Assembly (NCBI GenBank): GCA_016187385.1
Contig: JACPJU010000001.1
Span: 204,010 to 268,009 of the forward strand
DNA length: 64,000 nt
Origin: Candidatus Aenigmatarchaeota archaeon
Lineage (GTDB): Archaea; Aenigmatarchaeota; Aenigmatarchaeia; CG10238-14; SCSR01
Direction: 5' to 3'
Shown here: piece by piece, positions 7,713-32,475 of the stretch
How the letters are laid out: every line of letters begins with the position of its first letter
Numbering within the stretch: position 1 is the stretch's first letter
Program-made: the position numbers and the translations under genes
Notes under the pieces: generated by a model
The model's database searches: none
What the model was told of the DNA's origin: nothing
Seen by the model: only the letters and a program-made list of their open reading frames with translations

Positions 7713-8366
7713 ATGTTAAAAGAAGTTTCCAGTAGATTGAAAGAATATAATATTTTCCATAAAATTGAAAATGGATTCTTAGTAACTAGGAAGACAAGAG
7801 TAAAAATACCCCCCATTTCATCTAAAGTAAGTTATTTGACAGGTGTATTAACTGGAGATGGTAATCTCACGATGGTAAAAAGAATGAAAGGGGGTTTTCA
7901 TTACACTGTTAAAATAACGTCAAATTCAACAGACTATTTAAACTATCTGAATACTAGATTTAGAGAATTGTTTTCAATCAAAGGCGAAATTGGAAAGGAT
8001 AACAGAAAGATGAACACATTTTTTCTGATATTCAGAAATGTTTGCATTTTTTGGTATTTTGTAACCGTTGGTCTATGCATTGGAAGAAAAATAAATCCTT
8101 CAATACCACATAAAATTAGAACAAACAGAAAATTTTTAATTACTTACCTAAGTGGATTAGTGGATACAGATGGTCATATTAACCGTAATAGAATACAGCT
8201 AAAACAGAAAAGCAAAAGTTTTTTGGAAGAGATTAAGCAAGCACTCAAGCTATTTAAATTATCGCCTACAGAGGTTAAAGTAAATTACACCAAGTCAATG
8301 CCCTATTATTATATAAGATTTGATAATAGATTATTTTGCTATAAAGTAGCCACAGTAGCTCAGTAG
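7713..8366 (+). CDS. LAGLIDADG homing endonuclease (two-motif, free-standing)
   Basis: Two LAGLIDADG-type motifs: LTGVLTGDGNL and YLSGLVDTDGHI, about 100 aa apart. The 3' end (KVATVAQ*) reads through the first 18 nt of the downstream tRNA. Confidence 0.8.
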   Translation: MLKEVSSRLKEYNIFHKIENGFLVTRKTRVKIPPISSKVSYLTGVLTGDGNLTMVKRMKGGFHYTVKITSNSTDYLNYLNTRFRELFSIKGEIGKDNRKMNTFFLIFRNVCIFWYFVTVGLCIGRKINPSIPHKIRTNRKFLITYLSGLVDTDGHINRNRIQLKQKSKSFLEEIKQALKLFKLSPTEVKVNYTKSMPYYYIRFDNRLFCYKVATVAQ

Positions 8367-8445
8367 GTAGAGCACCCGAAACAGTTGTGAACTGTTGGTG
8401 AACCTTGTAAGCGGAAGGTCGTGGGTTCAATTCCCACCTGTGGCT
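8349..8445 (+). tRNA. tRNA; best anticodon hairpin AACAG-UUGUGAA-CUGUU gives GUG (His). About 24 nt of extra sequence implies intron(s) at non-canonical positions
   Basis: Acceptor GCCACAG/CTGTGGC 7/7, D arm GCTC-AGTAGGTA-GAGC, T arm GTGGG-TTCAATT-CCCAC. Total 97 nt versus about 73 expected. The extra CCCGA lies before the anticodon stem. A 19-nt ACCTT-GTAAGCGG-AAGGT hairpin lies in the variable region. Confidence 0.5.
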
Positions 8446-8455
8446 TTGATTTTGT

Positions 8456-18011: not shown

Positions 18012-19225
18012 TCGTATTGAGAAGTGTCAACAGCCTCGACAAGCTCGACATAATTTATCTGTCCTTGGCTGAGTGCACTACAGTCAGTCGCCCATCCATT
18101 GTGCCAGCGCGCAGAAGCTTTCCAGTATCTGTACTCGTTCCCCGTGCATGGGTAAACATATCCGTATCCTGGATAAGGCTTGTCATAATTGCTTTTAAGG
18201 AACTGTATGCCTATTCTTATGTTGCAGTCCGAGTCGTAAGCGGTTTCGTCATTTACACAACCATAATTCTTGGCCCCTTCTCTAGTAAACCAACTTTCAT
18301 GTATTACATTCAACTGGAATATTCCATAAGAGCCAAGTCCATCTGATTTTATTTTGTCAATGCTGTCTCTTCCGCAATTGTTTGTACCGTCTTTGCAGTG
18401 AGCGATATTAGATATTCTTCCTCCTCCGCTTTCAACAGCGGCTAGTTTAAGTACAAATCTTTGCCCATTCTGATCTAAGCCAAGTTCTTTGGCAATTTGA
18501 ATTATTTTTGCTTGCACATTTCCGACAGGGGGAGGTGGAACAACAACACCAGAAACAGTAAATGCACGTGAAGTAGGACATTCGCTCTGGTCTGCACGGA
18601 AGTATGCCGTATAGTCGTCTGGCGTTCCTGATGACGTGCATGTCCAGCTCCATCCATATTTGTTTCCGTCATTGGTTGGATTATCGCAACATCGTAAGTC
18701 CCTGCAGTTTGAAAAACCTGTACTTGTTATCTGTACGTTCGTGCAGCCTGTATCGGCGGTTGCAGTGACAGTTATATCTGAATTCGGGTTCGATGTCGCC
18801 GGGCTTACATAAAGATTCGACGGAGCTATTCCAGACACGCTAATAATGCTTTTTTCTTCTTCTATCCTTTTTGTTATGGTCAGTGACTTGGCGTTGTCTT
18901 TTGTGAATTCTTGCCCTATGTTGACGAATGACTCGGAGGTGGCTTGCCTGTTGCCAGTCTTAACAACAACATAACCGTCTTTTTTAATCATCACATCATA
19001 TCGGGCATCAGAAGGAAAATTGTAAATTAATTTGGCTTCGTTTGGAGCGTTGTCAGCCATGCTCAGCAGGTTGGCGATTTCCAACGCTTCATTGTTGACT
19101 TTCTGTTCTGTCAAAACTGTTTTCATATCGTTCGCTATCGTGGGAAATATAGCGGCAGCCAGAGATATGTTTATGAGTATAAAACCGAATGTGACTAATG
19201 AATCTGCTTCTACGCTACCCTTCAT
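17987..19225 (-). CDS. Pilin-like protein with lytic transglycosylase (SLT/lysozyme-like) domain
   Basis: N-terminus MKGSVEADSLVTFGFILINISLAAAIF. aa about 235-380 read IIQIAKELGLDQNGQRFVLKLAAVESGGG...SYGIFQLN: the catalytic E-S motif and GLMQ-like motif of SLT family 1. Confidence 0.65.
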   Translation of the reverse strand: MKGSVEADSLVTFGFILINISLAAAIFPTIANDMKTVLTEQKVNNEALEIANLLSMADNAPNEAKLIYNFPSDARYDVMIKKDGYVVVKTGNRQATSESFVNIGQEFTKDNAKSLTITKRIEEEKSIISVSGIAPSNLYVSPATSNPNSDITVTATADTGCTNVQITSTGFSNCRDLRCCDNPTNDGNKYGWSWTCTSSGTPDDYTAYFRADQSECPTSRAFTVSGVVVPPPPVGNVQAKIIQIAKELGLDQNGQRFVLKLAAVESGGGRISNIAHCKDGTNNCGRDSIDKIKSDGLGSYGIFQLNVIHESWFTREGAKNYGCVNDETAYDSDCNIRIGIQFLKSNYDKPYPGYGYVYPCTGNEYRYWKASARWHNGWATDCSALSQGQINYVELVEAVDTSQYECLITGGC

Positions 19226-19251
19226 AATTTTATTTTATTGTTTGGGAGATA

Positions 19252-19539
19252 TTAACATGACCTAGCTTGCTGGCATTTGGGATCGTTTGTATTCCTCTGA
19301 AGGACACCACAGCATTCGTCTTTCGCTGGAGGCAGACCACAGTCGGACGGCCACTGTATGCAGTTCTTTCTGGTTATCATCTCGCTGCAGTAGCTTATCT
19401 TTTTGGCTGCGCATCCTCCTTTGACTCCGATGATTTTTGTCACGTCAATCCATTGGGAGAAAATGGCGATTATAAAGAAGAGTGTGATAATGGCGACTCC
19501 TATGAAGAAAAGCGTCTGGGCTGTAACTGCTTTAAGCAT
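19252..19539 (-). CDS. Small pilin-like protein (paralog family, N-terminal TM helix + Cys-rich tail)
   Basis: 95 aa, hydrophobic N-terminus and CAAKKISYC motif shared with 19552..19842 and 24745..25029. Confidence 0.5.
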   Translation of the reverse strand: MLKAVTAQTLFFIGVAIITLFFIIAIFSQWIDVTKIIGVKGGCAAKKISYCSEMITRKNCIQWPSDCGLPPAKDECCGVLQRNTNDPKCQQARSC

Positions 19540-19551
19540 AATGTTATTTTG

Positions 19552-19842
19552 TTATCCTTTGCCTATTAGTTCTTTACACTGGTCGCCGCCAGGTTTATTG
19601 AGCTTCGCATAACTACAAATGTTTTCGTCTGCTGGCCAAGTTGCTGGCTTTGGAGGTTGTTTTCCACTTGCATATGCCGGATCTGCAGAATACCATTCAG
19701 AACATAAACTCTTTTTGGCCAAATCACATCTAACTTTATCAATTCCACCGGCAGAAGCAATCAGCAAATATCCTATAAGACCGATGACGGCAATACCCAA
19801 GACAATTGCTATGACATAAGGAACTGCTACTGCTTTCATCAT
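19552..19842 (-). CDS. Small pilin-like protein (paralog family)
   Basis: MMKAVAVPYVIAIVLGIAVIGLIGYLLI followed by CDLAKKSLCSEW; paralog of 24745..25029. Confidence 0.5.
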   Translation of the reverse strand: MMKAVAVPYVIAIVLGIAVIGLIGYLLIASAGGIDKVRCDLAKKSLCSEWYSADPAYASGKQPPKPATWPADENICSYAKLNKPGGDQCKELIGKG

Positions 19843-19885
19843 TTCACTTGACTTATATTTTGTTTTTGAAGGATATATAAATATT

Positions 19886-22366
19886 CTACACTATCTGAAC
19901 CCTTGTGCCAGTGCTTCCGCAACCAGAGACGCAAGAGTTTTTGATTGTATAGTCTCCTAGATCTAAGGTTATAGAGCAGTCTTCTGCTCCTGTATCTGAC
20001 CTTCTATTGATACTACATATAACATTCCCGCTTGAGAAAACACTCCCTTTTGAAAGTTCCAGCTTACCGTCACATCCGAATATCGAGTTTATATTTACAT
20101 TGCTTCTGCTCTGCAATGTAAACTTCCAATAGTTTGCCAATTGATTTTCTGAAGTATCGACAAGTGCGTATTTCACATTACCGTCTGTATTTATCTCACA
20201 TGGCACTGTCGAGCTTAGGCACGGCTGGGCTGGTGCATATAATTGAGGGAGAACTTTTATGGAATTCGCTTTATTATCAAAGCACGGCAATGTGGCTGTA
20301 TCTTGTTTCAAGACTTTGTACGCACCTCCGAAATTGACATCTGAATATAAAACAGCTGTTTGTTCGGATGGCACTTTGATGGATGATATCCTGTTTTGGA
20401 ATGCAAGACTTGACAAATCTGGTTCAGTCAGAGACTGTATAGAAGTGCCTTGATGATTAGCATTGTCATACAAAGTAACTTTTGGTTGAGATACTGCTAC
20501 TGGGGTTGATGAAGAAACTTTGCTTAATCCCCATTCCTGTGCTTCGGCTTTGAAGTCATAAGTCCCACCTTGCACACACATGACAGGCCATGTGGTAGAA
20601 CAGCTTTTACTACTAGCTGACGAGCATTCATATATTCGGGTTCTGACAACTGCCGGACGATCGCCGAACACACATTTGTCTGTTTTGTCGCCACTGTCAT
20701 CCAAACTGATTAACAGACGATAAAGATTGCCATTGGGGTCGCCGGCTTCCATTGTCAAACTGAATGCATCGCCTGCAATCGGACCAAATGGACTGGATGA
20801 TAACTTGACCGTGACCGCGGGTGGGACGACGTTTACCTTGAGTATATTCGTCTGTACTTTTACTCCCGCTAAGGTTTCAATCCGACCTTGGAAGTTGTAT
20901 TCACCTGCATTTACACATTTAACAACAAATTCCTTAGAACATTTGTTACGTTCGGTCTGATCACAAAATACATCCTGTTCTCTTGTGGTTTCAGATGTCC
21001 CTGAGAAGAAGCATTTGCCTTGCTTGTCGCCTTCTGTGTCGAGATTGAATATCACTGTTCCGATGTTATTCATGTCTGTTCTGGATGCTACTGTTAATTT
21101 CATTTCATTATTCAAGACGACAGGCGTTGGAGTTACACTTAATGATGGTATGAAATTTGCAGGCAACACATTGGATATACCTGCATTCTGTTGGGTGTCT
21201 ATGGCACCAGCCATGAATGAATGACGGCCTTCAACACTACATTTGACAGACCACGTAGCGGAACATTGAGAACCGCTTGAGCAATCTTTTGTGACTATTC
21301 TGTCTTCTGTATCTGCAAATCTGCATTTGCCTTGTTTGTCGCCTTGGTCATCAAGATTGAAGTATAATCTGGCAAGATTATGTGTCTGCTTTGTAGCTGT
21401 GACTGTTATTTGTATTGGGTCTTCTATTCCCCTAACCAGTTGGTCTATGGACAGTGTAACGACAGGCAGTGTAACAGGTTGCCCTCCTTCAACAATCCAT
21501 GTATAAATGTTTTCATCTCCCGATGTGCACTTGCCTTTCACGCCATTGTAATCTTTATCCGTTTCTTTTATTCTTTCTGAACATGTGTGCCACTTTCCAT
21601 CTCCGCCGCAGATGACACCGTACTTTACTTTGTATTCGTCTGGGGAGAGGAGTATGCATTTACCGCCTGCACAACTCTCTTTATACCATGTGCACCCTTG
21701 AGAGCTACTACAGAAGGTTCTAGTTAAAGCTTTGTCGTTGTCTAAACAAGCTGGACGTGTGCCTATCTCTATACCCGCTGTTACATGGCCACATCTAACT
21801 ATATTTGTACTTCCTGCGCAAGAAGTTTGCGTATTATCTACAGCTAAACACCTACCACTACGACATTCGTCATATGTAACAACAGGTGTACAACCGAGCG
21901 ATGTGCTTTTTCCAGTTATGCACTCGGATAAACTACCGCAATTTCTGTTGTCTATAGCCACGCCTGGATTTACAAAATATACGCGACCTTTATCATTATT
22001 GTAATCGTTCAAACTATTGTCCTCTTCATCGACCAGCCATAAAACACATCTATTATCAGCGGGTGGTGACGGCAAATCTTTTGGCCAAAAGTACAAGTTA
22101 TCTTCTATTAGAAATTTTTTGTTATTGACATTGTCGAAAAGTGTAAATGCATGGACTTCTGCAATGCTCCCACCTTGATCGGGGTCCAGTCTAACGTACA
22201 AAACTTTTCCTAATTCTGGCACTTGTGGTCCTAATCCACCCATCAACTGCCCCAACAATTCCAAGATGTCTATGTTGAAAGCCTTCAGCAATATGGTCAC
22301 AGCGACAGCAAGAACAGCCACCATCAGAAAAAGCTGCATTACAGCAGAGACTGCGTCGCCTTTCAT
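19886..22366 (-). CDS. Giant pilin-like surface protein with three tandem Cys-rich repeats and a beta/gamma-crystallin domain
   Basis: N-terminus MKGDAVSAVMQLFLMVAVLAVAV. Three about 100-aa repeats with NLDxxGDKxxKCxF...C...W.V.C..G.Y.F. Crystallin Greek-key pattern TLYDNANHQG...NRISSIKV...VLYSDVNFGG. Confidence 0.6.
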   Translation of the reverse strand: MKGDAVSAVMQLFLMVAVLAVAVTILLKAFNIDILELLGQLMGGLGPQVPELGKVLYVRLDPDQGGSIAEVHAFTLFDNVNNKKFLIEDNLYFWPKDLPSPPADNRCVLWLVDEEDNSLNDYNNDKGRVYFVNPGVAIDNRNCGSLSECITGKSTSLGCTPVVTYDECRSGRCLAVDNTQTSCAGSTNIVRCGHVTAGIEIGTRPACLDNDKALTRTFCSSSQGCTWYKESCAGGKCILLSPDEYKVKYGVICGGDGKWHTCSERIKETDKDYNGVKGKCTSGDENIYTWIVEGGQPVTLPVVTLSIDQLVRGIEDPIQITVTATKQTHNLARLYFNLDDQGDKQGKCRFADTEDRIVTKDCSSGSQCSATWSVKCSVEGRHSFMAGAIDTQQNAGISNVLPANFIPSLSVTPTPVVLNNEMKLTVASRTDMNNIGTVIFNLDTEGDKQGKCFFSGTSETTREQDVFCDQTERNKCSKEFVVKCVNAGEYNFQGRIETLAGVKVQTNILKVNVVPPAVTVKLSSSPFGPIAGDAFSLTMEAGDPNGNLYRLLISLDDSGDKTDKCVFGDRPAVVRTRIYECSSASSKSCSTTWPVMCVQGGTYDFKAEAQEWGLSKVSSSTPVAVSQPKVTLYDNANHQGTSIQSLTEPDLSSLAFQNRISSIKVPSEQTAVLYSDVNFGGAYKVLKQDTATLPCFDNKANSIKVLPQLYAPAQPCLSSTVPCEINTDGNVKYALVDTSENQLANYWKFTLQSRSNVNINSIFGCDGKLELSKGSVFSSGNVICSINRRSDTGAEDCSITLDLGDYTIKNSCVSGCGSTGTRVQIV
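20537..21439 (-). repeat. Three in-frame tandem repeat units (~300 nt each) inside the 19886..22366 gene
   Basis: Protein-level repeats DDQGDKQGKCRF / DTEGDKQGKCFF / DDSGDKTDKCVF with conserved Cys spacing. Confidence 0.5.
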
Positions 22367-22754: not shown

Positions 22755-24707
22755 TCATGTTATCAGTGTTTCCACGGATATCACGGAAGTGAACAGATAA
22801 TATGTGAAGATTAGAGTTATGAAATAAACAATACAGCTGAAGCCCAATATTCTGGCGACGGTTAATTTCTTCAGCATTCCTTCGTCGCCGTTGGTTATTG
22901 TGCTCAATGCCATGGCAATCAACACAACAATCTCTATAAGATAAATGCCGACTATGAGCTGGAAATCATGCACAGGAATTATCAGGCCTATTTGGAATAT
23001 AGACGAAAGAACACCTGTCCCGCCTACAGGTCCCAGACCGCCGCCAACATCGCCGAATGACCCAAAGACAGAACCCAGCTTTATGAGCAGCCTTGTCATC
23101 ACAGAGGCTATAGTGACAACAATGCCAGCGCTTAATGGCGCGAGCAATACGGCCTGAGTAGCCATCGTCGACGTTACATCCTCCATCATGTTCCTCAAAT
23201 CTTCATCGACTTCGTGCATGTCTTTCAGATATTTCGAAACCACAACCATGGACTTTGAAGCGCTCGCCATTCCCCTTTTAGACGTCTCAACAACAACTTT
23301 CATCACAGCCTCTATCAGCGTGGAAGGATAATAATTGATTGCGCCATACTTCTTGTCGAATACAGCACTTTCAAACGGCATGCCGAAAACCTTTATGTTG
23401 TAGAGAATCTTTTCGAAGAATTCCGAAATTTTCAATCCTTTTATCTCTCCTTTCAGTCTCTTTAATGAAGTCTCCAAAGGAATACCACGGAGCATAAGGC
23501 TTCCCAACTGGAACAGCGCTTCTGTGAATTCATTTTCTATTTCGGAAATCTCCTGCCTTATTTTCAGCTTCCTCATAATTGAAAGATATGAAAAACCGAC
23601 GATAGCACCGAATCCAACAAACACAAGCAACATCGAATAAATCAGCAATTCAAGACTGAATATTCCACTTCCCGTGAGCAACTTGTAAGAAAGGAACGCA
23701 ATGAAAGGCAAGGGAAGCAACAAGTAGATGTACGGCTTTTCGTAGAATCTATCAGACAATATTTCGGGGTGCTTGCTCAGATCCGGCTCCCGGAAACTAT
23801 ATGGCCTCTTTCCAAGATAGCTCGTCATCATCAGATAAACAACCAAAGGAAGGAAGATGTTATAGCCGAAGACAAGAAAAACCGGTTTTATCAATTCCGG
23901 AAGAAATACGCTTATGATCGGGAAGAACACAAGCCCTATAATCGGAAGAAGTATTCCGAGCGCATTCAATATGGTCACTGGCTGTTTCAATTCCCGCGCA
24001 TAGATTTTCATTCTTTCCTTCGTTCCGTCCAGCATGACAGAAACAGCCTCATCAAGGAATCTTTCTCGTCTGTCCTGAGATTCAACGCTTGATGTTTTTA
24101 TGAGATAGAGGGATGTCGCAAACTCCTTGCTCTCCCTTTCCCATTTTTTGATGAATTCGTCCAACGCATCTTCTGTCCTGTCCAATCTCCGCGTGTAGAC
24201 ACTCCACAAAAGCTCTCGCAGGTCTATGGCCATTGCACCCTTGAGATTTTTGGAAGCAAACCTTATGGCATTCTCAAGGTTGGGCGACAGATGCATCGAG
24301 ATGCTCATGTAGATTGTTGTAAGGACCATCTCGGAAGACGCGCTGATTCTGAACCGCCTGGCGTAATACAGCGGATAATCCACAAGAAAGTAAAAAACAA
24401 TAATAGCCATTATGACAGAGAAGAATATGGAAGATATGGAGAAGGATTTTATTGCTACAAGAGCCAGCATGGAAACTATGAAGAACAGCCAGGTTGCGAC
24501 AAAAGCCAACGCATATGCACCTTTCGGTGTTATCTTTGAGTGAGAGAACGTTATGGCTTCCTGGTATTTTTCATCCAGACTTTTGAAGGATGGTATTATA
24601 GGGAAAATCTTTTCTGATATTCCGCATATTTTTTCATAGAACGAGAGCTTTCTGGCTGATTTTTCTTCTCTCAGGAACTTTTCATACTCGCGCGAAATTA
24701 TTGGCAT
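22755..24707 (-). CDS. Polytopic membrane protein, FlaJ/TadC (PilC)-like type IV pilus platform protein
   Basis: 650 aa with about 9 TM helices separated by two cytoplasmic alpha-helical blocks; lies directly downstream of the secretion ATPase in the same orientation. Confidence 0.55.
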   Translation of the reverse strand: MPIISREYEKFLREEKSARKLSFYEKICGISEKIFPIIPSFKSLDEKYQEAITFSHSKITPKGAYALAFVATWLFFIVSMLALVAIKSFSISSIFFSVIMAIIVFYFLVDYPLYYARRFRISASSEMVLTTIYMSISMHLSPNLENAIRFASKNLKGAMAIDLRELLWSVYTRRLDRTEDALDEFIKKWERESKEFATSLYLIKTSSVESQDRRERFLDEAVSVMLDGTKERMKIYARELKQPVTILNALGILLPIIGLVFFPIISVFLPELIKPVFLVFGYNIFLPLVVYLMMTSYLGKRPYSFREPDLSKHPEILSDRFYEKPYIYLLLPLPFIAFLSYKLLTGSGIFSLELLIYSMLLVFVGFGAIVGFSYLSIMRKLKIRQEISEIENEFTEALFQLGSLMLRGIPLETSLKRLKGEIKGLKISEFFEKILYNIKVFGMPFESAVFDKKYGAINYYPSTLIEAVMKVVVETSKRGMASASKSMVVVSKYLKDMHEVDEDLRNMMEDVTSTMATQAVLLAPLSAGIVVTIASVMTRLLIKLGSVFGSFGDVGGGLGPVGGTGVLSSIFQIGLIIPVHDFQLIVGIYLIEIVVLIAMALSTITNGDEGMLKKLTVARILGFSCIVYFITLIFTYYLFTSVISVETLIT

Positions 24708-24744: not shown

Positions 24745-25029
24745 CTATGAACATCCTGTATTTGATTTGTCCCAGTTTGGGATTATGGCTTTGCAGAATT
24801 GACACACATCTTTCGACCAGTCGACTTTGCATTTTCCTGTTTGAAGTTCAGTTTTAAGACTTTCCGATTTAGTGCCGCAGTACTGGACTTTTTTTGCTAT
24901 GCACTCTGCCTCTGTGCCTGCATCACCGCCTTTACCTTTTGAATAGATAAGCAAATATCCGATCAATGCTATCAGGATAACGCCGAGAACAATCGCCACT
25001 ATATATCCTACGGGAAATCCGCCTTTCAT
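24745..25029 (-). CDS. Small pilin-like protein (paralog family)
   Basis: MKGGFPVGYIVAIVLGVILIALIGYLLI then CIAKKVQYCG; 4-nt overlap with the ATPase gene. Confidence 0.5.
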   Translation of the reverse strand: MKGGFPVGYIVAIVLGVILIALIGYLLIYSKGKGGDAGTEAECIAKKVQYCGTKSESLKTELQTGKCKVDWSKDVCQFCKAIIPNWDKSNTGCS

Positions 25030-27266
25030 TTCACCCTCTCCTTGAACCAGTCAGACCATTTGTCGTAAATCATCTTCGAATCCAACGCCCCTACTTCTTT
25101 CTTGACTTGCTCGGAAATTAAATGAAACATTGAATTAGATTCGACTATGTAATTGGCCTCCAGGATATCGTCTCTACCTGTCTTTGTGGCTATGTCTATC
25201 ATAGTTTCTTTTATCTTTGCTCTCAATAAAATGTTGTCCCAGACAGCGTCCCAGTGACCGTGCCATTCCCGCACCCTTTTAGAAATTTCATTCAACACTT
25301 GAGATTCGCCGTCGATGAGAACATCTGTCGGTTTCAGCCTGTCTTCCTTCGCGGAATACTCCATCAAGTTGACAAACCCTCCTTCATCCAATGGGTCATT
25401 TTTCCAGTTCTTTCTCACTTCTGTCAATTCTGTTACTCTTCTGAACCTATGCAGTCCGTCAGGGGATTTCAAAAGATTGCACACAGTTATCAGATCCAAT
25501 GCCTTGAAGCTTGTCGGAGGAACTCCCAAATCATGAACAATCCTGTCGTAAACACCGTAAGCGGATTCGCCGTGCACTGTGCCCGCGACTACATTCGACA
25601 TCCCGCCTATTCGCATGGCTTCGAATAATGCTATAGCCTCGACGCTTCTGACTTCGCCTATAACCAGAACAGAATCGCCCAATCTCAATGCTGTCCTCAA
25701 TGCTTCTGCTGCGGGCAGTTCAGTCTCAACACGAGTAATAACAGAACGCGACTTCATCCTTTCTATGTTGTATCCAAGGGTTCTGATTTGGGGAACGGAA
25801 ATTTCCAGAGTATCTTCTGTGACAATTATCCTGAACTTTGACATTATCTCGAGTATCAATGAATTCAAAAGTGAGGTCTTGCCTGATCCCCTTCCGCCGG
25901 CTATGAGCATCGCACGTCCGCCGTCAATAATGAAACTCATCAATCCCGCATACAGCGGATCGAACATCTTATTCTTGATGAACAAAGGATACGTCCACGG
26001 TTTCTCTCTGTGACGCCTGAATGCGAATGCCAGTCCTTCTGGGGACAACGTTCTTGTGATGGCTGCCACACGCGCCCTTCCACCAGGAACAGTTAATTCT
26101 GTATCCAGAACAGGATTCGATTCGTCTAGAGGCCTGCCTGAATAAAGCCTGAATCTTGTTGCCCATGACTCTGCATCATCCATTGTAGGCATAAGATTTG
26201 TCTCGCATTCTTCAAAATCGGACTGTGTGACGTAGATTGGAGTTCGTCCTATTGGAGAATTTACGAATATATCTTGTATATTTTCATCTGCGAGCAGGAT
26301 TTCCAAGATGCCGAAACCTGCCGTATAACGCGCCAGGATGTCGGATAATTCTTCGATTTCATCAGCCGTCAAGCTCACATTCATGCCTGTGGCTATGTCC
26401 CTTACCAGATCCCTTCCAAGATTTTTGAACATCTCGCGTGACTTGTCAGGCTCTACCGATTCAGCTTCTGTAGGCCTGTGAGCGGACAAATATCTTCTTG
26501 CCGAATCTAGAATAGTGTACTTTTCTTCGCTGAGAACAAACTCGCGAGGTATCACATGATAAAGATGACGAACTTTGTTAGGAAGTTTGTATATTTCGAT
26601 TTTCGCGTTTCCAACAGAATATTTGTTAACCATCCTTGCTCCTTTAGGTATGTTAAGCATGAGCCTCGTCAACATGAAGTTTGGCCTGACTATGGGAGAG
26701 AATAATTCGCGATAAATGTCCCTAGTGCCTGGCTGATAATCATGAAGTATGGGAAGTGCTTTTTGTATCAGAGTGCATTCTTCGAGTATCTGTTTGATTG
26801 GAATCAATGCGCTGTCAAGATAATGTGTGAAGCACACCTTCTGCTCGAATGGTGCTGTTTTCTCGAGAACTTTGTTGTTGTTCACCATCTTTACTGTCTG
26901 CATGTACGCCGCTATCGGATCTCTTCTCAAAAGTTGCAGAACCATGAATTGCAAGTCATTCAATCTTTTCGGGAAAAGCTTTTCGCATTGCGGAGGACCA
27001 AGATTTTTCAGGCTTATTATCCTGTCTATGTTCAATATCCTGTTGTAAGCATCTGCTATTTCTCTCAACAACCGCGTCTGTTCGGAATCGTATTCATTCT
27101 CTCTCGCTTCAATCAAAACTATTCTGTCAGCGTCCTTTACTTCCAGAAGTTTGTCGATGACAACAGCCATTGTTGCATCTGAATCTTCTATGCTCGGAGC
27201 AATAGCCCACCTTGCACAATTTATTCTCAAAATTCCGTCTACAACTTCGTATTCTACGCCAGCCAT
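25026..27266 (-). CDS. Type II/IV secretion system ATPase (FlaI/PilB/TadA/VirB11 family) with extended N-terminal region
   Basis: Walker A LIAGGRGSGKTSLLNSL, Walker B/Asp box SVLVIGEVRS, His-box-like region; 746 aa. Confidence 0.85.
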   Translation of the reverse strand: MAGVEYEVVDGILRINCARWAIAPSIEDSDATMAVVIDKLLEVKDADRIVLIEARENEYDSEQTRLLREIADAYNRILNIDRIISLKNLGPPQCEKLFPKRLNDLQFMVLQLLRRDPIAAYMQTVKMVNNNKVLEKTAPFEQKVCFTHYLDSALIPIKQILEECTLIQKALPILHDYQPGTRDIYRELFSPIVRPNFMLTRLMLNIPKGARMVNKYSVGNAKIEIYKLPNKVRHLYHVIPREFVLSEEKYTILDSARRYLSAHRPTEAESVEPDKSREMFKNLGRDLVRDIATGMNVSLTADEIEELSDILARYTAGFGILEILLADENIQDIFVNSPIGRTPIYVTQSDFEECETNLMPTMDDAESWATRFRLYSGRPLDESNPVLDTELTVPGGRARVAAITRTLSPEGLAFAFRRHREKPWTYPLFIKNKMFDPLYAGLMSFIIDGGRAMLIAGGRGSGKTSLLNSLILEIMSKFRIIVTEDTLEISVPQIRTLGYNIERMKSRSVITRVETELPAAEALRTALRLGDSVLVIGEVRSVEAIALFEAMRIGGMSNVVAGTVHGESAYGVYDRIVHDLGVPPTSFKALDLITVCNLLKSPDGLHRFRRVTELTEVRKNWKNDPLDEGGFVNLMEYSAKEDRLKPTDVLIDGESQVLNEISKRVREWHGHWDAVWDNILLRAKIKETMIDIATKTGRDDILEANYIVESNSMFHLISEQVKKEVGALDSKMIYDKWSDWFKERVK

Positions 27267-27305: not shown

Positions 27306-27734
27306 ATGGCACTGCCAACCCTACCACAATTGCCTTTCGAGAGACAGGACGATAATGTCAAGGCACTGATTTCGGAACTTGTGAAAAGGATAAACGAGGA
27401 CGCCCGCAGAATAAGGGTTGTAGAGCAGAGGATGGACAGGTTGGACAATTCTATTTCCGCTCTGCAGGACGACACTTTGACTCAGCTCAGCGACTTGAAA
27501 GTTTTCCTTGACAAGATAAACAACAAAATAATCACAATGTCAGAAAAACTTGTTGGTATAGAAAGCGAAATTCTGAGGCTGAACAAGGAACTGACAAAAA
27601 CTGCAACCAAGAGGGAATTGAAAGAGATGGAGACTTTTATAGATCTTGTCAATCCTATAACATCAAAATTCGCCACAAGGGACGAAGTCGAAAGAATGAT
27701 TCAGGACAAGCTGGCAAAGAGCAAAAAGGCTTAG
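27306..27734 (+). CDS. Coiled-coil protein (paralog of 28528..29154)
   Basis: MALPTLPQLP N-terminus, heptad-rich remainder; shares MALP/ALPTL and coiled-coil layout with the downstream paralog. Confidence 0.4.
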   Translation: MALPTLPQLPFERQDDNVKALISELVKRINEDARRIRVVEQRMDRLDNSISALQDDTLTQLSDLKVFLDKINNKIITMSEKLVGIESEILRLNKELTKTATKRELKEMETFIDLVNPITSKFATRDEVERMIQDKLAKSKKA

Positions 27735-27789: not shown

Positions 27790-28056
27790 ATGAAAAAATT
27801 TGAGTCAATTCTGACTAGCAAAGGTCAAATAACAATACCTAAGCCTATTAGAGAACATCTTGGATTAAAACCTGGTAAAAGAGTAGTTTTCATGCCAGAC
27901 GAAGATGAGGTTATTATGATGAAGGCAGGGCAGAGTCTTGTAGAAGGCTTAATGAAAATAAGGAAAGATTTAGAAAGGAAAGGCAAACTTTTCACAGAGG
28001 CAGAAATTAAAAGAATGATGAAAGAAGGTAAGAAGGAATGGAGTAAAGTTGAATGA
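27790..28056 (+). CDS. vapB: AbrB/SpoVT-family antitoxin (VapB-like)
   Basis: KGQITIPKPIREHLGLKPGKRV swapped-hairpin motif; 88 aa; 4-nt ATGA overlap with the PIN gene. Confidence 0.7.
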   Translation: MKKFESILTSKGQITIPKPIREHLGLKPGKRVVFMPDEDEVIMMKAGQSLVEGLMKIRKDLERKGKLFTEAEIKRMMKEGKKEWSKVE

Positions 28057-28454
28057 TCGGTTTGGATTCTTGGATTTTCTTAGAATTTTATACGAAGGGT
28101 AGAAAATGGTTAAAATGCGAGCAAGTAATTAAAAGCATTGATATAAAAGTAATTAGCACAGTAGTTTTGTTAGAAATAAAGTATAAGCTTGCTAAAGCTT
28201 TTGGAAAATTGGAAGCTAGAAAAGTTTTAAATAAAATAAAAGTTAACAAATCAATTTTGATAATAGATGTAGATGAAAAGGTCGCTGAAAAAGCCGCGAA
28301 CCTTAGATTGAAATACTATAAAAGTAATGTCACAGAACTTTCTTATGCTGACTGTATCCATCTATCCACAGCTATTCTTTCCAAGTGCAAGAAATTCTAT
28401 TCTGGCGACCCCGATTTTAAAGGAATAAATGAAATACCTATTGAAATTGTTTAG
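28053..28454 (+). CDS. vapC: PIN-domain ribonuclease toxin (VapC)
   Basis: Acidic residues in a PIN arrangement (GLDSWIF..., ...YADCIHLSTA..., ...SGDPDF); 133 aa. Confidence 0.7.
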   Translation: MIGLDSWIFLEFYTKGRKWLKCEQVIKSIDIKVISTVVLLEIKYKLAKAFGKLEARKVLNKIKVNKSILIIDVDEKVAEKAANLRLKYYKSNVTELSYADCIHLSTAILSKCKKFYSGDPDFKGINEIPIEIV

Positions 28455-29184: not shown

Positions 29185-29688
29185 ATGGCAATTCCTATCG
29201 AAACTTTTCTTTCGCCGCAAATGGTTCAATATCTGGTAACTCTGATAATTCCGTTCGTGCTTTTGTTTTCTGTATTGTTTGTCGGATTGAGGATGACTCG
29301 CATATTCGGCGACAACAATCCCATTTATCTTATTCTCTCATTGGGGTTCGTAATAATGATTTATGCCGTCCAACCAGATACATTCGCGTTTCTTGCAGGC
29401 TATTTGTTCCAGATTGGGGTGATGAACAGTATACTCGTCTTGTTGGGATTTATTGCGCTCGTTTTCTGGTTTTTGATAAGGAAGAGTGTAAGCTGGGCGG
29501 CATCTTTGAAAGGCGACGAACAGAAATTGGAGGATCTGAGAAAACTTGAATCAAAGTTATTGTTGAAATTGTACAATGAAAGAAACATGGAGAAGAAAAT
29601 ACAGGTGGAGAGCAAGCTGACTGAAGTCCAGAGAGAAATGAAGATATTGAGCTTGAAGCTCAGCTCAAAACTCAAACGGTATGCTTAA
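29185..29688 (+). CDS. Membrane protein, tandem paralog family member 1 (TM + coiled-coil tail)
   Basis: Shares the LxxLxxPFVLxxxVLxxxLRxTxIFGD N-terminal block with the next three genes. Confidence 0.5.
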   Translation: MAIPIETFLSPQMVQYLVTLIIPFVLLFSVLFVGLRMTRIFGDNNPIYLILSLGFVIMIYAVQPDTFAFLAGYLFQIGVMNSILVLLGFIALVFWFLIRKSVSWAASLKGDEQKLEDLRKLESKLLLKLYNERNMEKKIQVESKLTEVQREMKILSLKLSSKLKRYA

Positions 29689-29720
29689 ATTTCTACAAAC
29701 CGAATTATGTTTAAGATAGA

Positions 29721-30257
29721 ATGGTCAATGTATTTCAAATAGTCGCCGAGAAGCTTGTCGAGCTTGGATTTTACAACTTCTTCCTACCGTTTGTTTTGTT
29801 CTCGACAGTTCTTTATGCGATGTTGAGACAGACCAAAGTTCTCGGAGATTCGCCTACGATTCTTGGCATTGTTGCTATAAGCGTTGGCTTGTTTGTTTTC
29901 GGCCTGCCTGTAATTATTGGCGTTGGAGTTGCCCCTGAACTGACTGGATTTTTCGGTCAGATGTCTGTCATCCTTATTGTGTTTGTGTTTGGTCTTCTCA
30001 TAGCCAGCTTCTTCTATCCGAATTTGATGGAACGACTGCCGGATTTGGTCAAGGGCGGAGGACCTCTGCAGTTTCTAGTCTGGGCTGTTGTGGCATTCGC
30101 CGCATTGTTCGGACTTTTCAATTTCGCGGGGAACTTTATCAATTTTGTCGTAAAGACTACCAGTCTTCAACCTGACTTGCTGACAATCACAGGCGTCATC
30201 ATGGCTGTTTTAATCATATTCCTGCTAATAACTATAGGGGGAGGAAGAGGTGGATAA
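29721..30257 (+). CDS. Membrane protein, tandem paralog family member 2
   Basis: VAEKLVELGFYNFFLPFVLFSTVLYAMLRQTKVLGD; about 5 TM helices. Confidence 0.5.
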   Translation: MVNVFQIVAEKLVELGFYNFFLPFVLFSTVLYAMLRQTKVLGDSPTILGIVAISVGLFVFGLPVIIGVGVAPELTGFFGQMSVILIVFVFGLLIASFFYPNLMERLPDLVKGGGPLQFLVWAVVAFAALFGLFNFAGNFINFVVKTTSLQPDLLTITGVIMAVLIIFLLITIGGGRGG

Positions 30258-30796
30258 TGGCATCGCTTTTTGAAATAGCAATTTTGAAGCTCAAGGAGCT
30301 GGGTTTCTTCAATTTCCTCCTTCCGTTCATTTTGACAGCGGCTATCATTTATGGCGGATTGAGGCGCGCCAAGATATTCGGAGATCCTGACGCGAACATG
30401 GCTGTTAATGCGATTGTTGCTTTTGTTGTCAGCTTGTTCGTATGGGCCGCGCCTATAATTCTAGGTGTTGACATAGAGGGAAAATTGGCGTCATTCTTCA
30501 TCCAGGGGTTTAGTGTGTCGTTGATTGTATTGGTTGGGCTTATATTCGCTGGGATGTTCTTCAAGCCTGACCTAGCAGGTGACTTGAGCGACAAGATAAA
30601 ATCAACTTACTTCTGGGGAGCTATCCTGATTATTTCTTTGATGGTCGCTGTAGTTATTTTTATTTCAAGTGGGCTGGCGACTGTCCTGTTTCCGAAAGGC
30701 ACTGGATTCACAATTCCGCCAGATACATTTATAACCGTAGGAGTACTATTTTTATTAGCAATAAGCGTTGCTGTGATAGTCAGGTCGGGTAAATGA
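30257..30796 (+). CDS. Membrane protein, tandem paralog family member 3
   Basis: ILKLKELGFFNFLLPFILTAAIIYGGLRRAKIFGD; start overlaps the previous stop by 1 nt. Confidence 0.5.
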   Translation: MASLFEIAILKLKELGFFNFLLPFILTAAIIYGGLRRAKIFGDPDANMAVNAIVAFVVSLFVWAAPIILGVDIEGKLASFFIQGFSVSLIVLVGLIFAGMFFKPDLAGDLSDKIKSTYFWGAILIISLMVAVVIFISSGLATVLFPKGTGFTIPPDTFITVGVLFLLAISVAVIVRSGK

Positions 30797-31746
30797 GAAA
30801 TGAAATCAAGGCAATTGGTTTTGTATTTGTCGTAAGTCTGCTGATGTTTTCTACTGTCGCTTTTGCCCAGGTAAGGACTTTTCAGGATCTGATTAATGCG
30901 GGAAAGAAGATTGGAATTTTCGATTTCTTTTTCCCATTTTTGATGGCTTTTGCCGTGTTTTATGGTCTTATAGTCAAGAGTACTATTTTCGGGCCATCAA
31001 CTGACAAAGGAGCTAAGACAATAGGTCTTTTCATAGCGTTGGCTGCTGCTGGATTTGTAGTCACTTATACACCCATAGGGTTTTCTCTGGCGCAGTTTCT
31101 GACACAATTCGCGACTAATGCTTTCGTGGCGATACTCGCAACAATTGTTTTTCTTCTATTTGTAACTATGTTTGCGAGTGCTAGTCATGGTTTATTTAAC
31201 ACCGAGATTTTTAAAAACATGTCAATTCCATTAGTCATCGTAATTCTGCTTATTAGTTTTGGTATATATTTTCAGGCAGGCGGCTCTAGAATATTTCCGG
31301 GACTGGCAACCATATTCAACATACCTCTCGAGACGGTTGTAATAGTCGTGGGTATAGTGTTGTTCATTGTCGCTCTCATTTTGCTGATTGTTACAGGTGG
31401 TGGAACTCCTGCAGCTCCTGCTCCTCCTGTTCCATCTGATGCAAGACTTAAGCAGGACATAATGCCATTAACGAACACGTTGAAAAAATTGAAGAACATT
31501 GATGGTGTTTATTTCAGATGGAACAAGAATAATCGGTTCAATAAAAGCGGTAAGAAGGAAATCGGTGTGATTGCCCAGGATGTTGAAAAGGAATTTCCTG
31601 AGCTTGTTTCCAAAGGAAGCGACGGTTACAGAATGGTTGATTACAGCAAACTGTCAGCCGTGCTTCTGCAGGCCGTAAAGGATCAACAGAAACAGATTGA
31701 AAATCTCAAGTCTAAGATTTCTAAGCTAGAATCAAGATTGAATTAA
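30793..31746 (+). CDS. Membrane protein, paralog family member 4, with C-terminal peptidase S74-type intramolecular chaperone (phage tailspike/endosialidase auto-processing) domain
   Basis: C-terminal SDARLKQDIMPLTNTLKKLKNIDGVYFRWNK...EIGVIAQDVEKEFPELV...DGYRMVDYSKL...LLQAVKDQQKQIENL matches the S74 chaperone consensus (SDxRLKxNI...GVxYxW...IGxIAQEVxxxxPELV...YxxVDYxxL). Confidence 0.65.
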   Translation: MRNEIKAIGFVFVVSLLMFSTVAFAQVRTFQDLINAGKKIGIFDFFFPFLMAFAVFYGLIVKSTIFGPSTDKGAKTIGLFIALAAAGFVVTYTPIGFSLAQFLTQFATNAFVAILATIVFLLFVTMFASASHGLFNTEIFKNMSIPLVIVILLISFGIYFQAGGSRIFPGLATIFNIPLETVVIVVGIVLFIVALILLIVTGGGTPAAPAPPVPSDARLKQDIMPLTNTLKKLKNIDGVYFRWNKNNRFNKSGKKEIGVIAQDVEKEFPELVSKGSDGYRMVDYSKLSAVLLQAVKDQQKQIENLKSKISKLESRLN

Positions 31747-31788: not shown

Positions 31789-32475
31789 ATGGCTGTAGAT
31801 GTTACTACATTAGAAAAGGACTTGTATCCCAGAATAGATTTTAGCGATGTGAGACATCTGGCTAGTGAACACATCGTCAAACCTATTGCCAACGGCGTCA
31901 AGACCGTCACTGATTATCTAGGAAGATTTACCAGAAAAGGCGTGGAAGTCTATAATTACTTGACAAGATGGGTGACATACAAACCTACCAGACAAAGAGA
32001 GGAAATTGGAGGTACTTATGAAAACGGCAATCACAGAATAGAATTAAATACACATCATTTGCTTGGGGACGGATATAGAGGTTTTGGTGAACAAGCCGCT
32101 ATTCACGAAGCAGGCCATGCTGGAATGGAAGCGACAGGAGCGAATCAGATTTATACACAAGCCGCACGTGAGTATTACGCCGATGTTTTTTCAGAAAGAT
32201 ACGGTGAAAAGTTCAGAGAACTTGGTTCTGAAGTTGGAATGTATATTGCGAACAGGATGTTGGAAGGTCTTACATCCGCCATGACAGAAGAAGCAAGCGA
32301 CTCTCCGAGTTTGGACGCGTATGTTCCAGAAAGATATGCGGCCTATAATGTCATTAATAGAGTTGGCAGAGAGTCTGCGTTTTCACCGACGATGGAAGAC
32401 GCCAAAAGAATTGTTCCCATGTATGTGGAAGAATTAACGAAGATTAGCTATCGCGATTCTCTGTATTCAGAGTGA
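31789..32475 (+). CDS. Hypothetical protein with HExxH metallopeptidase-like motif
   Basis: AAIHEAGHAGMEA; family not recognised. Confidence 0.35.
   Translation: MAVDVTTLEKDLYPRIDFSDVRHLASEHIVKPIANGVKTVTDYLGRFTRKGVEVYNYLTRWVTYKPTRQREEIGGTYENGNHRIELNTHHLLGDGYRGFGEQAAIHEAGHAGMEATGANQIYTQAAREYYADVFSERYGEKFRELGSEVGMYIANRMLEGLTSAMTEEASDSPSLDAYVPERYAAYNVINRVGRESAFSPTMEDAKRIVPMYVEELTKISYRDSLYSE

What the first reader, a model, noticed from the sequence alone, without database searches (positions are those of the whole stretch)
29185..31746. Tandem array of four paralogous membrane proteins; the last carries a phage-tailspike S74 auto-chaperone domain
The four consecutive genes share a conserved N-terminal block, (A/L)ExKLxELGFxNFxLPFxLxxxxxYxxLRxxKxxGD, and multi-TM bodies. 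Member 4 adds a Pro/Ala linker, then SDARLKQDIMPL...DGVYFRWNK...IGVIAQDVEKEFPELV...DGYRMVDYSKLSAVLLQAVKDQQKQIENLKSKISKLE. This reproduces the S74 intramolecular chaperone that trimerises and then auto-cleaves at the Ser of SD(A/E)RLK in phage endosialidases and tail fibres. A membrane protein with this module is unusual and suggests a trimeric surface spike or fibre, or a captured viral gene.
Basis: partly seen in the sequence, partly recalled or inferred. Interest (0 to 1): 0.65.

Follow-up and report, generated by a model that had tools for sequence, protein, structure and literature searches.

The report
Archaeal membrane protein with self-cleaving tail-fibre domain
Four related small membrane proteins in an uncultured DPANN archaeon sit next to its pilus-assembly machinery, and the last one has picked up a genuine self-cleaving trimerisation domain otherwise known from phage tail fibres, probably on the inside of the cell rather than as a surface spike.

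Summary
Genes at 29185-31746 (+) are four homologous membrane proteins in one operon. Member 4 ends in an intact Peptidase_S74 / ICA domain (Pfam E 8e-17; Ser215-Lys220 dyad; predicted fold matches MyRF ICA and phage chaperone structures).

- The locus is chromosomal, from a Candidatus Aenigmarchaeota genome. It is syntenic with relatives and has no viral neighbours.
- The four genes belong to an unnamed ~180-residue, five-helix membrane family seen only in DPANN archaea. It usually occurs as tandem arrays of three or four genes.
- The arrays lie with two cytoplasmic coiled-coil proteins, a TadA/FlaI-type ATPase, a TadC-like platform and pilins, so they look like accessory parts of a type IV pilus-like machine.
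- The S74 domain is a one-off addition. The closest orthologue stops exactly where the domain begins, and no other family member found carries it.
- Only 14 residues separate the last membrane helix from the cleavage serine, so there is no fibre or spike.
- Charge bias across 121 family members puts the C-terminus, and hence the domain, in the cytoplasm.

Most likely it trimerises member 4 and then cuts itself off. This is a new architecture for a known module, seen so far in one population only.

The parts
29185..29688 (+). g1: divergent, truncated family member with three hydrophobic helices and a Lys/Arg-rich C-terminal coiled coil (aa ~99-167), predicted cytoplasmic
   Evidence: ORF. Hydropathy and charge counts. 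hhalign to the family profile 95.6%, E 1e-8, aa 18-80. Orthologues in L001 and L004.
29721..30257 (+). g2: canonical ~180-aa five-helix member of the DPANN membrane family
30257..30796 (+). g3: canonical ~180-aa five-helix member, used as the query that defined the family
   Evidence: 183 representatives at E<=1e-3. Named sources are all DPANN.
30793..31746 (+). g4: family member with an N-terminal signal peptide and a C-terminal S74 domain. NCBI names it 'tail fiber domain-containing protein', Candidatus Aenigmarchaeota.
   Evidence: The identical ORF was assembled from at least four separate sequencing runs.
30793..30867 (+). g4 aa 1-25: Sec-type signal peptide (MRNEIK + hydrophobic core + AFA|Q). 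The same A-x-A|Q pattern is in P0002 and P0165.
   Evidence: Sequence reading. Cleavage is inferred, not tested.
30868..31392 (+). g4 aa 26-200: amphipathic N-segment plus five membrane helices (family body)
   Evidence: Hydropathy. AlphaFold helices 42-63, 72-91, 99-129, 137-167, 179-202. hhalign.
31393..31434 (+). g4 aa 201-214: linker TGGGTPAAPAPPVP. The closest orthologue, P0002, ends here (…RGGGP).
31435..31743 (+). g4 aa 215-317: Peptidase_S74 / ICA domain ending in a heptad-repeat helix (aa 284-316)
   Evidence: Pfam. PHROGs. AlphaFold pLDDT 93.2. Foldseek: 7dc3 E 7e-6, TM 0.75, then 3gud and 3gw6. Heptad register.
31435..31452 (+). SDARLK: predicted nucleophile Ser215, oxyanion Arg218 and general base Lys220. 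The predicted scissile bond is Pro214-Ser215.
   Evidence: S215, D216 and K220 lie in invariant columns and R218 in a nearly invariant one. Motif in 58/60 homologues. Residue roles are taken from PMC3742443.
28528..29154 (+). cc208: cytoplasmic coiled-coil protein conserved next to the array in all six DPANN loci compared
   Evidence: phmmer hits in L001, L004, L002, L046, L047 and L048. Alignment. Only generic coiled-coil matches.
27306..27734 (+). cc142: second conserved cytoplasmic coiled-coil protein of the module
   Evidence: phmmer hits in the same six loci. Pfam shows only weak coiled-coil matches.
25026..27266 (-). 746-aa TadA/FlaI-type secretion ATPase, divergently transcribed from the module
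   Evidence: PF00437 E 1e-16. NCBIfam TadA 1.6e-35 and FlaI 5.4e-34, both below the curated cut-offs. Orthologues in five loci.
22755..24707 (-). 650-aa polytopic membrane protein, TadC/T2SSF-like platform
   Evidence: Orthologues in five loci. 3 of 6 orthologues hit PF00482, best E 9.8e-6; the window copy itself does not.
24745..25029 (-). 94-aa pilin-like protein (MKGG|FPVGYIVAIVLG…), class III signal-peptide type
   Evidence: Sequence reading. Orthologue in L001. Pilin identity is inferred.

Best explanation
g1-g4 form an operon of paralogous small cytoplasmic-membrane proteins. They belong to an unnamed family found only in DPANN archaea. The predicted topology is N-terminus outside and C-terminus inside, with five helices in g2-g4 and three helices plus a cytoplasmic coiled coil in g1. 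The family forms a conserved module with two cytoplasmic coiled-coil proteins. In five of the six loci compared the module lies beside a TadA/FlaI-type ATPase and a TadC-like platform, and in this window also beside pilin-like genes. The paralogs are therefore most likely membrane-embedded accessory subunits of a type IV pilus-like machine (inferred from linkage). In this one Aenigmarchaeota population, the last paralog gained about 103 residues of a Peptidase_S74 / ICA domain at its C-terminus. The addition starts exactly where the closest orthologue ends. The domain has every conserved catalytic and structural position. By analogy with phage fibres and MYRF, it should trimerise through its C-terminal coiled coil. 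That would pull three g4 subunits together by their last membrane helices. The Ser215/Lys220 dyad would then cut the Pro214-Ser215 bond. The result is a mature membrane protein about the size of its S74-less orthologue, plus a free ICD trimer. The predicted side is cytoplasmic, so this is an assembly or maturation device, not a surface spike. Shown: homology, domain identity, motif conservation, synteny, and uniqueness of the fusion within the searches run. Inferred: topology, trimerisation, cleavage, and a role in the pilus machine.
For: Paralogy.
Family is restricted to DPANN and has no Pfam or NCBIfam model.
Conserved module: array + cc142 + cc208 in six loci; the ATPase and the ~650-765-aa platform protein in five of them (Aenigmarchaeota, Woesearchaeota and two unnamed metagenome contigs). 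The Nanoarchaeia locus L046 has the array and coiled-coil genes but no ATPase within 10 kb..
S74 identity and intact dyad.
Mechanism of the ICA domain (Ser/Lys dyad, Arg oxyanion, cleavage dependent on trimerisation, leucine zipper): PMC3742443.
The fusion is lineage-specific: P0002 (54% identical body, syntenic locus) ends at ...RGGGP with no S74.
Topology: mean Lys+Arg per segment over 121 members is 3.13 (loop 1), 2.55 (loop 3) and 2.04 (C-tail), against 1.11 (N-tail), 0.40 (loop 2) and 0.68 (loop 4). A signal peptide ahead of the N-segment in the g4 subfamily also implies N-out. AlphaFold gives five body helices.
The ORF is real: identical DNA in at least four independent run assemblies.
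Against: The fusion is a singleton from one clonal population, so there is no evidence of selection on it. No multimer model or experiment shows trimerisation or cleavage. Known ICA domains chaperone a triple beta-helix just N-terminal to the serine, and here there is none. The domain may therefore have nothing to fold, or may not reach its active trimeric geometry. Topology rests on charge bias and helix count only; the full-length model is of moderate quality (pLDDT 76.6, pTM 0.37). The role of the membrane family in the pilus machine is guilt by association. One locus (L046) has the array and the coiled-coil genes but no ATPase within 10 kb.
Confidence: 0.55

Rival explanations
1. Surface version. 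The C-terminus of g4 is outside the cell, and the S74 domain builds a trimeric, membrane-anchored surface structure. It is then shed, leaving a trimeric stub used in cell-cell contact or pilus function.
For: Most cellular S74 proteins among the nearest homologues look secreted or surface-located. Examples are bacterial proteins with a prepilin N-terminus (PF07963) or YadA-like repeats (sequences). DPANN archaea depend on host contact. g4 has a signal peptide.
Against: The family-wide positive-inside bias and an odd number (five) of body helices after an exported N-terminus put the C-terminus inside. Family C-tails are Lys/Arg-rich. There is no stalk: 14 linker residues only. The partner proteins (cc142, cc208, the g1 tail, the ATPase) are cytoplasmic.
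Confidence: 0.15
2. Evolutionary accident. A recent in-frame fusion of a stray S74-coding fragment, from a bacterial or phage tail-fibre gene, onto the 3' end of g4. It has no adaptive function and is tolerated because the domain simply cuts itself off or is inert.
For: It is the only instance found in the family. It comes from a single clonal population. The closest orthologue lacks it. There is no beta-helix substrate for the chaperone. The region shows other recent gene-content change: the VapBC pair is absent in relatives.
Against: All invariant and nearly invariant S74 positions are intact, and the score is about three times the Pfam cut-off. GC content of the segment (0.385-0.41) equals the genome's (0.396), unlike the clearly foreign VapBC (0.30-0.345). 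It is therefore not obviously very recent. The reading frame and junction are clean, with a Pro before the Ser as in several natural homologues.
Confidence: 0.25
3. Captured viral gene or prophage remnant. The array, or g4 as a whole, is part of an integrated virus.
For: g4 aa 214-316 match many phage tail-fibre families. Viral contigs hold relatives at up to 52% identity.
Against: Only the C-terminal domain matches. No neighbour has a PHROG hit. No viral contig holds a close relative of g3. The gene order ATPase / coiled-coil genes / array / diphthine synthase / TYW2 / M50 protease is shared with other Aenigmarchaeota genomes. The only tRNA gene in the window is about 21 kb away (8348-8446), and no integrase or att site was looked for.
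Confidence: 0.03

Closest known systems
C-terminal intramolecular chaperone domain of phage endosialidases and tail fibres (Peptidase_S74, PF13884; PDB 3GW6, 3GUD, 6F45)
   Same: Same domain family and the same position at the extreme C-terminus. Same S-D-x-R-x-K motif with the Ser/Lys dyad, and the same terminal coiled-coil helix. The expected outcome is also the same: the domain removes itself after trimerisation.
   Different: In phages the domain follows a long trimeric fibre or beta-helix that it helps to fold. Here it follows a five-helix membrane protein after a 14-residue linker. The host protein is archaeal, chromosomal and not part of a virion.
MYRF / MrfA membrane-bound transcription factors (ICA domain; PDB 7DC3)
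   Same: Best structural match (Foldseek E 7e-6, TM 0.75). A cellular, membrane-tethered protein that uses the domain on the cytoplasmic side for trimerisation-dependent self-cleavage (PMC3742443).
   Different: In MYRF the domain lies N-terminal to a single membrane helix, and cleavage releases a DNA-binding trimer. Here the domain is C-terminal to the membrane part, so cleavage would release only the domain itself. There is no DNA-binding domain. 23-26% identity.
Bacterial 'tail fiber domain-containing' surface proteins, including prepilin-type (PF07963) + S74 proteins
   Same: Closest sequences to the g4 domain (49-56% identity). They are cellular, not viral, and some belong to type IV pilin-like proteins.
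   Different: They have large extracytoplasmic passenger regions and one N-terminal anchor. They are bacterial. None has the DPANN five-helix body.
Archaeal type IV pilus loci with cytoplasmic coiled-coil accessory proteins (e.g. arCOG07564 in subclade 4F; Makarova et al. 2016, PMC4858521)
   Same: A secretion ATPase, a TadC-like platform and pilins, plus lineage-specific uncharacterised accessory genes including intracellular coiled-coil proteins. That paper notes that ATPases of the clade occur in nanoarchaea.
   Different: The tandem ~180-aa five-helix paralogs are not described there. No homology to arCOG07564 was tested.

Membership tests
Peptidase_S74 / ICA domain (PF13884) | Match to the family HMM above the curated cut-off | tested here: met
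   61.7 bits against a cut-off of 22, E 8.3e-17, aa 215-272.
Peptidase_S74 / ICA domain (PF13884) | Catalytic Ser-Lys dyad, five residues apart, with an Arg between them (S-D-x-R-x-K) | tested here: met
   The motif is SDARLK. S215, D216 and K220 lie in invariant columns and R218 in a nearly invariant one. Motif in 58/60 homologues. Residue roles from PMC3742443.
Peptidase_S74 / ICA domain (PF13884) | Fold of solved ICA domains, including the terminal trimerising helix | tested here: met
   Model pLDDT 93.2. Foldseek: 7dc3 TM 0.75; 3gud and 3gw6 with probability of about 0.9-1.0. Heptad a/d positions are V/I/I/L and L/Q/L/L.
Peptidase_S74 / ICA domain (PF13884) | Trimerisation and autocleavage at the Ser | not testable with these tools
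   Only monomer prediction is available, and there is no experiment.
Phage tailspike / tail-fibre protein | Trimeric fibre or beta-helix passenger N-terminal to the chaperone | tested here: not met
   Ser215 is 14 residues after the last membrane helix. aa 26-200 are the DPANN membrane family.
Phage tailspike / tail-fibre protein | Viral genomic context | tested here: not met
   No PHROG hits in the neighbours. Chromosomal synteny. The body family was not found on viral contigs.
MYRF-type membrane-bound transcription factor | DNA-binding domain - ICA - single membrane helix, with cleavage releasing the N-terminal trimer | tested here: not met
   The order is reversed (membrane body, then ICA) and there is no DNA-binding domain.
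Unnamed DPANN ~180-aa five-helix membrane family | Profile match over the whole body, with the LGFFxFxLPF…KSKIFG block | tested here: met
   g2 and g3 are in the profile. g4 scores 99.7%, E 2e-25. g1 matches only in part: 95.6% over aa 18-80.
Unnamed DPANN ~180-aa five-helix membrane family | Tandem arrays next to cc142/cc208 homologues, usually with the large T2SSE ATPase | tested here: met
   Six loci compared. The ATPase is within ~3 kb in five of them.
Archaeal type IV pilins (class III signal peptide) | Short charged leader ending in K/R-G/A, one N-terminal hydrophobic helix, then a soluble domain | tested here: not met
   g1-g4 have three to five helices and no such leader. Real pilin-like ORFs lie on the other strand.
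Prepilin peptidase PibD/FlaK (Peptidase_A24, five-helix form) | Match to PF01478 with two conserved catalytic Asp residues | tested here: not met
   PF01478 is not among the 22 families hit at E<=0.01 by any of the 121 members scanned. The Asp of 'IFGD' is not conserved (g4 has IFGP).

The most novel reading that the evidence does not exclude
A prokaryotic counterpart of the MYRF trick. An archaeon uses a phage-type ICA domain on the cytoplasmic face of the membrane as a self-removing trimerisation device for a subunit of its type IV pilus-like machine, with no fibre passenger. This would show that the domain can nucleate assembly of a polytopic membrane protein. It would also give a handle on a DPANN-wide, uncharacterised set of pilus-machine membrane and coiled-coil components.
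Probability: 0.3. Interest if true: 0.65.

Novelty: new variant of a known kind. Interest (0 to 1): 0.45.

Why it matters
The S74/ICA domain is known as a folding and trimerisation aid for phage fibres and, remarkably, for the eukaryotic transcription factor MYRF. An intact copy fused straight onto a five-helix archaeal membrane protein, with no beta-helix to fold, would widen what the module can do: assembling membrane proteins, in a third domain of life. It would also be easy to test in E. coli. Separately, the work shows that the four genes belong to a conserved DPANN module of membrane paralogs, two coiled-coil proteins, an ATPase and a platform. These organisms live attached to hosts and their pilus systems are largely 'dark matter', so conserved unknown subunits are good targets. 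The caveat is that the fusion is a singleton and may be an evolutionary accident.

Tried and rejected
- A mixed alignment of body homologues and S74 fragments (A3) was badly misaligned and was discarded. Body and domain were modelled separately instead.
- The afdb50 fold library was not available.
- A search of the 5.8-billion protein collection with the g4 body alone found only P0001 and P0002.
- A JGI metagenome scan with g4-subfamily patterns found nothing.
The g3 scan found none.
- Profile searches with cc208 gave only generic coiled-coil hits, including a weak FlaC_arch match in 2 of 7.
- A PDB profile search with the platform protein gave nothing.
- A selection test from population variation was impossible, because all contigs carrying g4 are identical in DNA.
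- Ideas rejected, with reasons in the membership table: g1-g4 as pilins, g1-g4 as five-helix prepilin peptidases, and a prophage context.
- Base composition does not mark the S74 segment as foreign.
Full report
**What is there**

The region 29185-31746 holds four consecutive + strand ORFs: g1 (167 aa), g2 (178 aa), g3 (179 aa) and g4 (317 aa). g2/g3 and g3/g4 share overlapping stop and start codons, so they read as one operon. The g4 protein is 100% identical to an NCBI entry named 'tail fiber domain-containing protein' from a Candidatus Aenigmarchaeota MAG. The window is therefore from a DPANN archaeon. Neighbouring genes agree with this: diphthine synthase, a TYW2-type methyltransferase and an M50 protease.

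**Paralogy**

- g2 and g3 are clear paralogs (44% identity, E 2e-23).
- g3 and g4 match at E 6e-7.
- Against a profile of 121 family members, g4 aa 28-207 score 99.7% probability, E 2e-25.
- g1 aa 18-80 score 95.6%, E 1e-8.

g1 is thus a truncated relative. It shares the first two to three helices and then continues as a Lys/Arg-rich coiled coil.

**The S74 domain**

- Pfam PF13884 matches g4 aa 215-272 at E 8.3e-17, 61.7 bits against a cut-off of 22.
- More than 40 PHROG tail-fibre, baseplate and tailspike families match aa 214-316, always with the last ~100 positions of their profiles.
- PDB sequence search finds the phage S16 long tail fibre 6f45, 8jov and, weakly, MyRF 7dc3.
- In an alignment with 36 homologous domains, S215, D216, K220, a Gly, the A-Q pair and a Pro are invariant. 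R218 is nearly invariant.
- S-D-x-R-x-K is present in 58 of 60 homologues.
- Modelled with that alignment, the domain reaches pLDDT 93.2.
- Its best structural matches are the MyRF ICA domain (E 7e-6, TM 0.75) and then the phage chaperones 3gud and 3gw6.
- The last helix has a heptad pattern.

The literature read here (PMC3742443) states that the Ser and Lys form the catalytic dyad, that an Arg stabilises the oxyanion, and that cleavage needs folding, trimerisation and the leucine zipper. All these elements are present in g4.

**What the body is**

**Context**

On the other strand, diverging from the module, lie:
- a 746-aa TadA/FlaI-type ATPase;
- a 94-aa pilin-like gene and further ORFs whose N-termini look like class III signal peptides;
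- a 650-aa polytopic protein, three of whose six orthologues hit T2SSF.

Between the ATPase and the array are two coiled-coil proteins without membrane segments, cc142 and cc208. I compared six other loci from Aenigmarchaeota, Woesearchaeota, Nanoarchaeia and unnamed DPANN-like contigs. Homologues of cc142, cc208 and a tandem array of one to four family members occur together in all six. The ATPase and platform are within about 3 kb in five of them. The four genes are therefore part of a conserved DPANN module attached to a type IV pilus-like system. None of the neighbours has a viral family hit. The flanks are syntenic housekeeping genes. This excludes a prophage.

**The fusion is a one-off**

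The closest body homologue, P0002 (54% identity), sits in the same position of a syntenic locus. It ends …RGGGP, exactly where the g4 linker begins, and is followed after 58 nt by the orthologue of the next gene. A search with the g4 body alone returned only P0001 and P0002, and a metagenome scan found nothing more.

The fused ORF is not an assembly error. Identical DNA was assembled from at least four separate sequencing runs. That identity also means a single clonal population, so no test of selection is possible.

The nearest S74 sequences are about equally close in two sources:
- bacterial cell proteins at 49-56% identity, several with a prepilin N-terminus or YadA-like repeats; the genome hits are Zixibacteria, Fibrobacteria, Bacteroidales and others;
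- viral contigs, at up to 52% identity.

The donor cannot be named. GC content of the segment equals that of the genome.

**Which side of the membrane**

In the g4 subfamily, the conserved N-segment is preceded by a Sec-type signal peptide (charged start, hydrophobic core, A-x-A|Q). The N-segment must therefore be outside. Hydropathy and AlphaFold both give five body helices. Over 121 members, the segments predicted inside carry 3.13, 2.55 and 2.04 Lys+Arg. Those predicted outside carry 1.11, 0.40 and 0.68.

The C-terminus, and hence the S74 domain, is thus predicted cytoplasmic. That is the same side as the g1 coiled coil, cc142, cc208 and the ATPase. Only 14 residues (TGGGTPAAPAPPVP) separate the last helix from Ser215, so there is no room for a fibre.

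**How it most likely works**

The domain trimerises through its terminal coiled coil. This draws three g4 subunits together by their last helices. The Ser215/Lys220 dyad then cuts before Ser215. What remains is a membrane protein of roughly the size of its S74-less orthologue, plus a free 103-residue domain. This step is inferred by analogy and not shown.

The main rivals are an extracellular location and a neutral, recent fusion. The absence of the beta-helix that ICA domains normally fold is the chief reason for doubt.

**Comparison and verdict**

The domain is a full member of Peptidase_S74 on every sequence and fold criterion tested. The protein is not a tail fibre, because it has no passenger and no viral context. 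It is not a MYRF-type factor either, because the domain order is reversed and it has no DNA-binding domain. It works most like a hybrid of the two: C-terminal and self-removing as in phages, membrane-tethered and probably cytoplasmic as in MYRF.

I rate it a new variant of a known kind, with moderate interest. It is lowered by being a singleton and raised by the clean, testable prediction and by the conserved DPANN module it exposes.

Noticed in passing
window 27790-28454 (+): An AbrB/MazE-type antitoxin (88 aa) and a PIN toxin (133 aa), i.e. a VapBC pair, sit between the two conserved coiled-coil genes. GC content is 0.30-0.345 against 0.396 for the window. The pair is absent at this position in the syntenic loci L001 and L004, so it looks like a recent insertion.
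   Followed up: partly
window 31789-32475 (+); L001 10686-11294: The 228-aa gene 42 nt downstream of g4 has an HExxH motif (AIHEAGHAG). Its weak orthologue in L001 (phmmer E 2e-4) has HESIH. No Pfam, NCBIfam or PHROG match. It may be a small metalloprotease-like protein co-transcribed with the array. It is absent in L004.
   Followed up: partly
window 11093-22366, both strands: Downstream of the ATPase and platform lie several ORFs with pilin-like N-termini (MKG|…, MMKA|…). One is an 826-aa protein with a beta/gamma-crystallin domain (19886-22366, -). Others in the stretch are a 720-aa GH5 cellulase-domain protein (15181-17343, -) and an 881-aa protein with a weak lysozyme-like SLT_3 match below the Pfam cut-off (11093-13738, +). 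Surface and lytic functions linked to the pilus locus may be relevant to a host-attached lifestyle.
   Followed up: partly
proteins P0003, P0010, P0033, P0034, P0038, P0044, P0046, P0048: About 8 of the 60 closest S74 domains belong to bacterial proteins with a prepilin-type N-terminal methylation domain (PF07963). The same domain is thus repeatedly attached to type IV pilin-like proteins in bacteria, while here it sits in an archaeal pilus-type locus. This could be coincidence or a functional link.
   Followed up: no
loci L001, L002, L004, L046, L047, L048: The two coiled-coil proteins (cc142, cc208) are conserved next to the membrane-paralog array across distant DPANN lineages, even where no ATPase is within 10 kb (L046). 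cc208 has a conserved N-terminal ~30-residue helical domain (…GFSEVEVIDVLRKEGYS…), a Pro/Gln-rich spacer and a conserved C-terminal LEKxFxxxLPxxxExV motif. No known family matches.
   Followed up: partly
window 8348-8446 (+): The only tRNA found (tRNA-His, GTG) is 99 nt long. That length suggests an intron, as is common in archaea.
   Followed up: no
proteins P0075 (289 aa) and P0081 (250 aa): Two family representatives are fused to unrelated sequence: a polytopic N-terminal region in one and an aminoacyl-tRNA-synthetase-like fragment in the other. They are probably chimeric contigs or frameshifts rather than real architectures.
   Followed up: no
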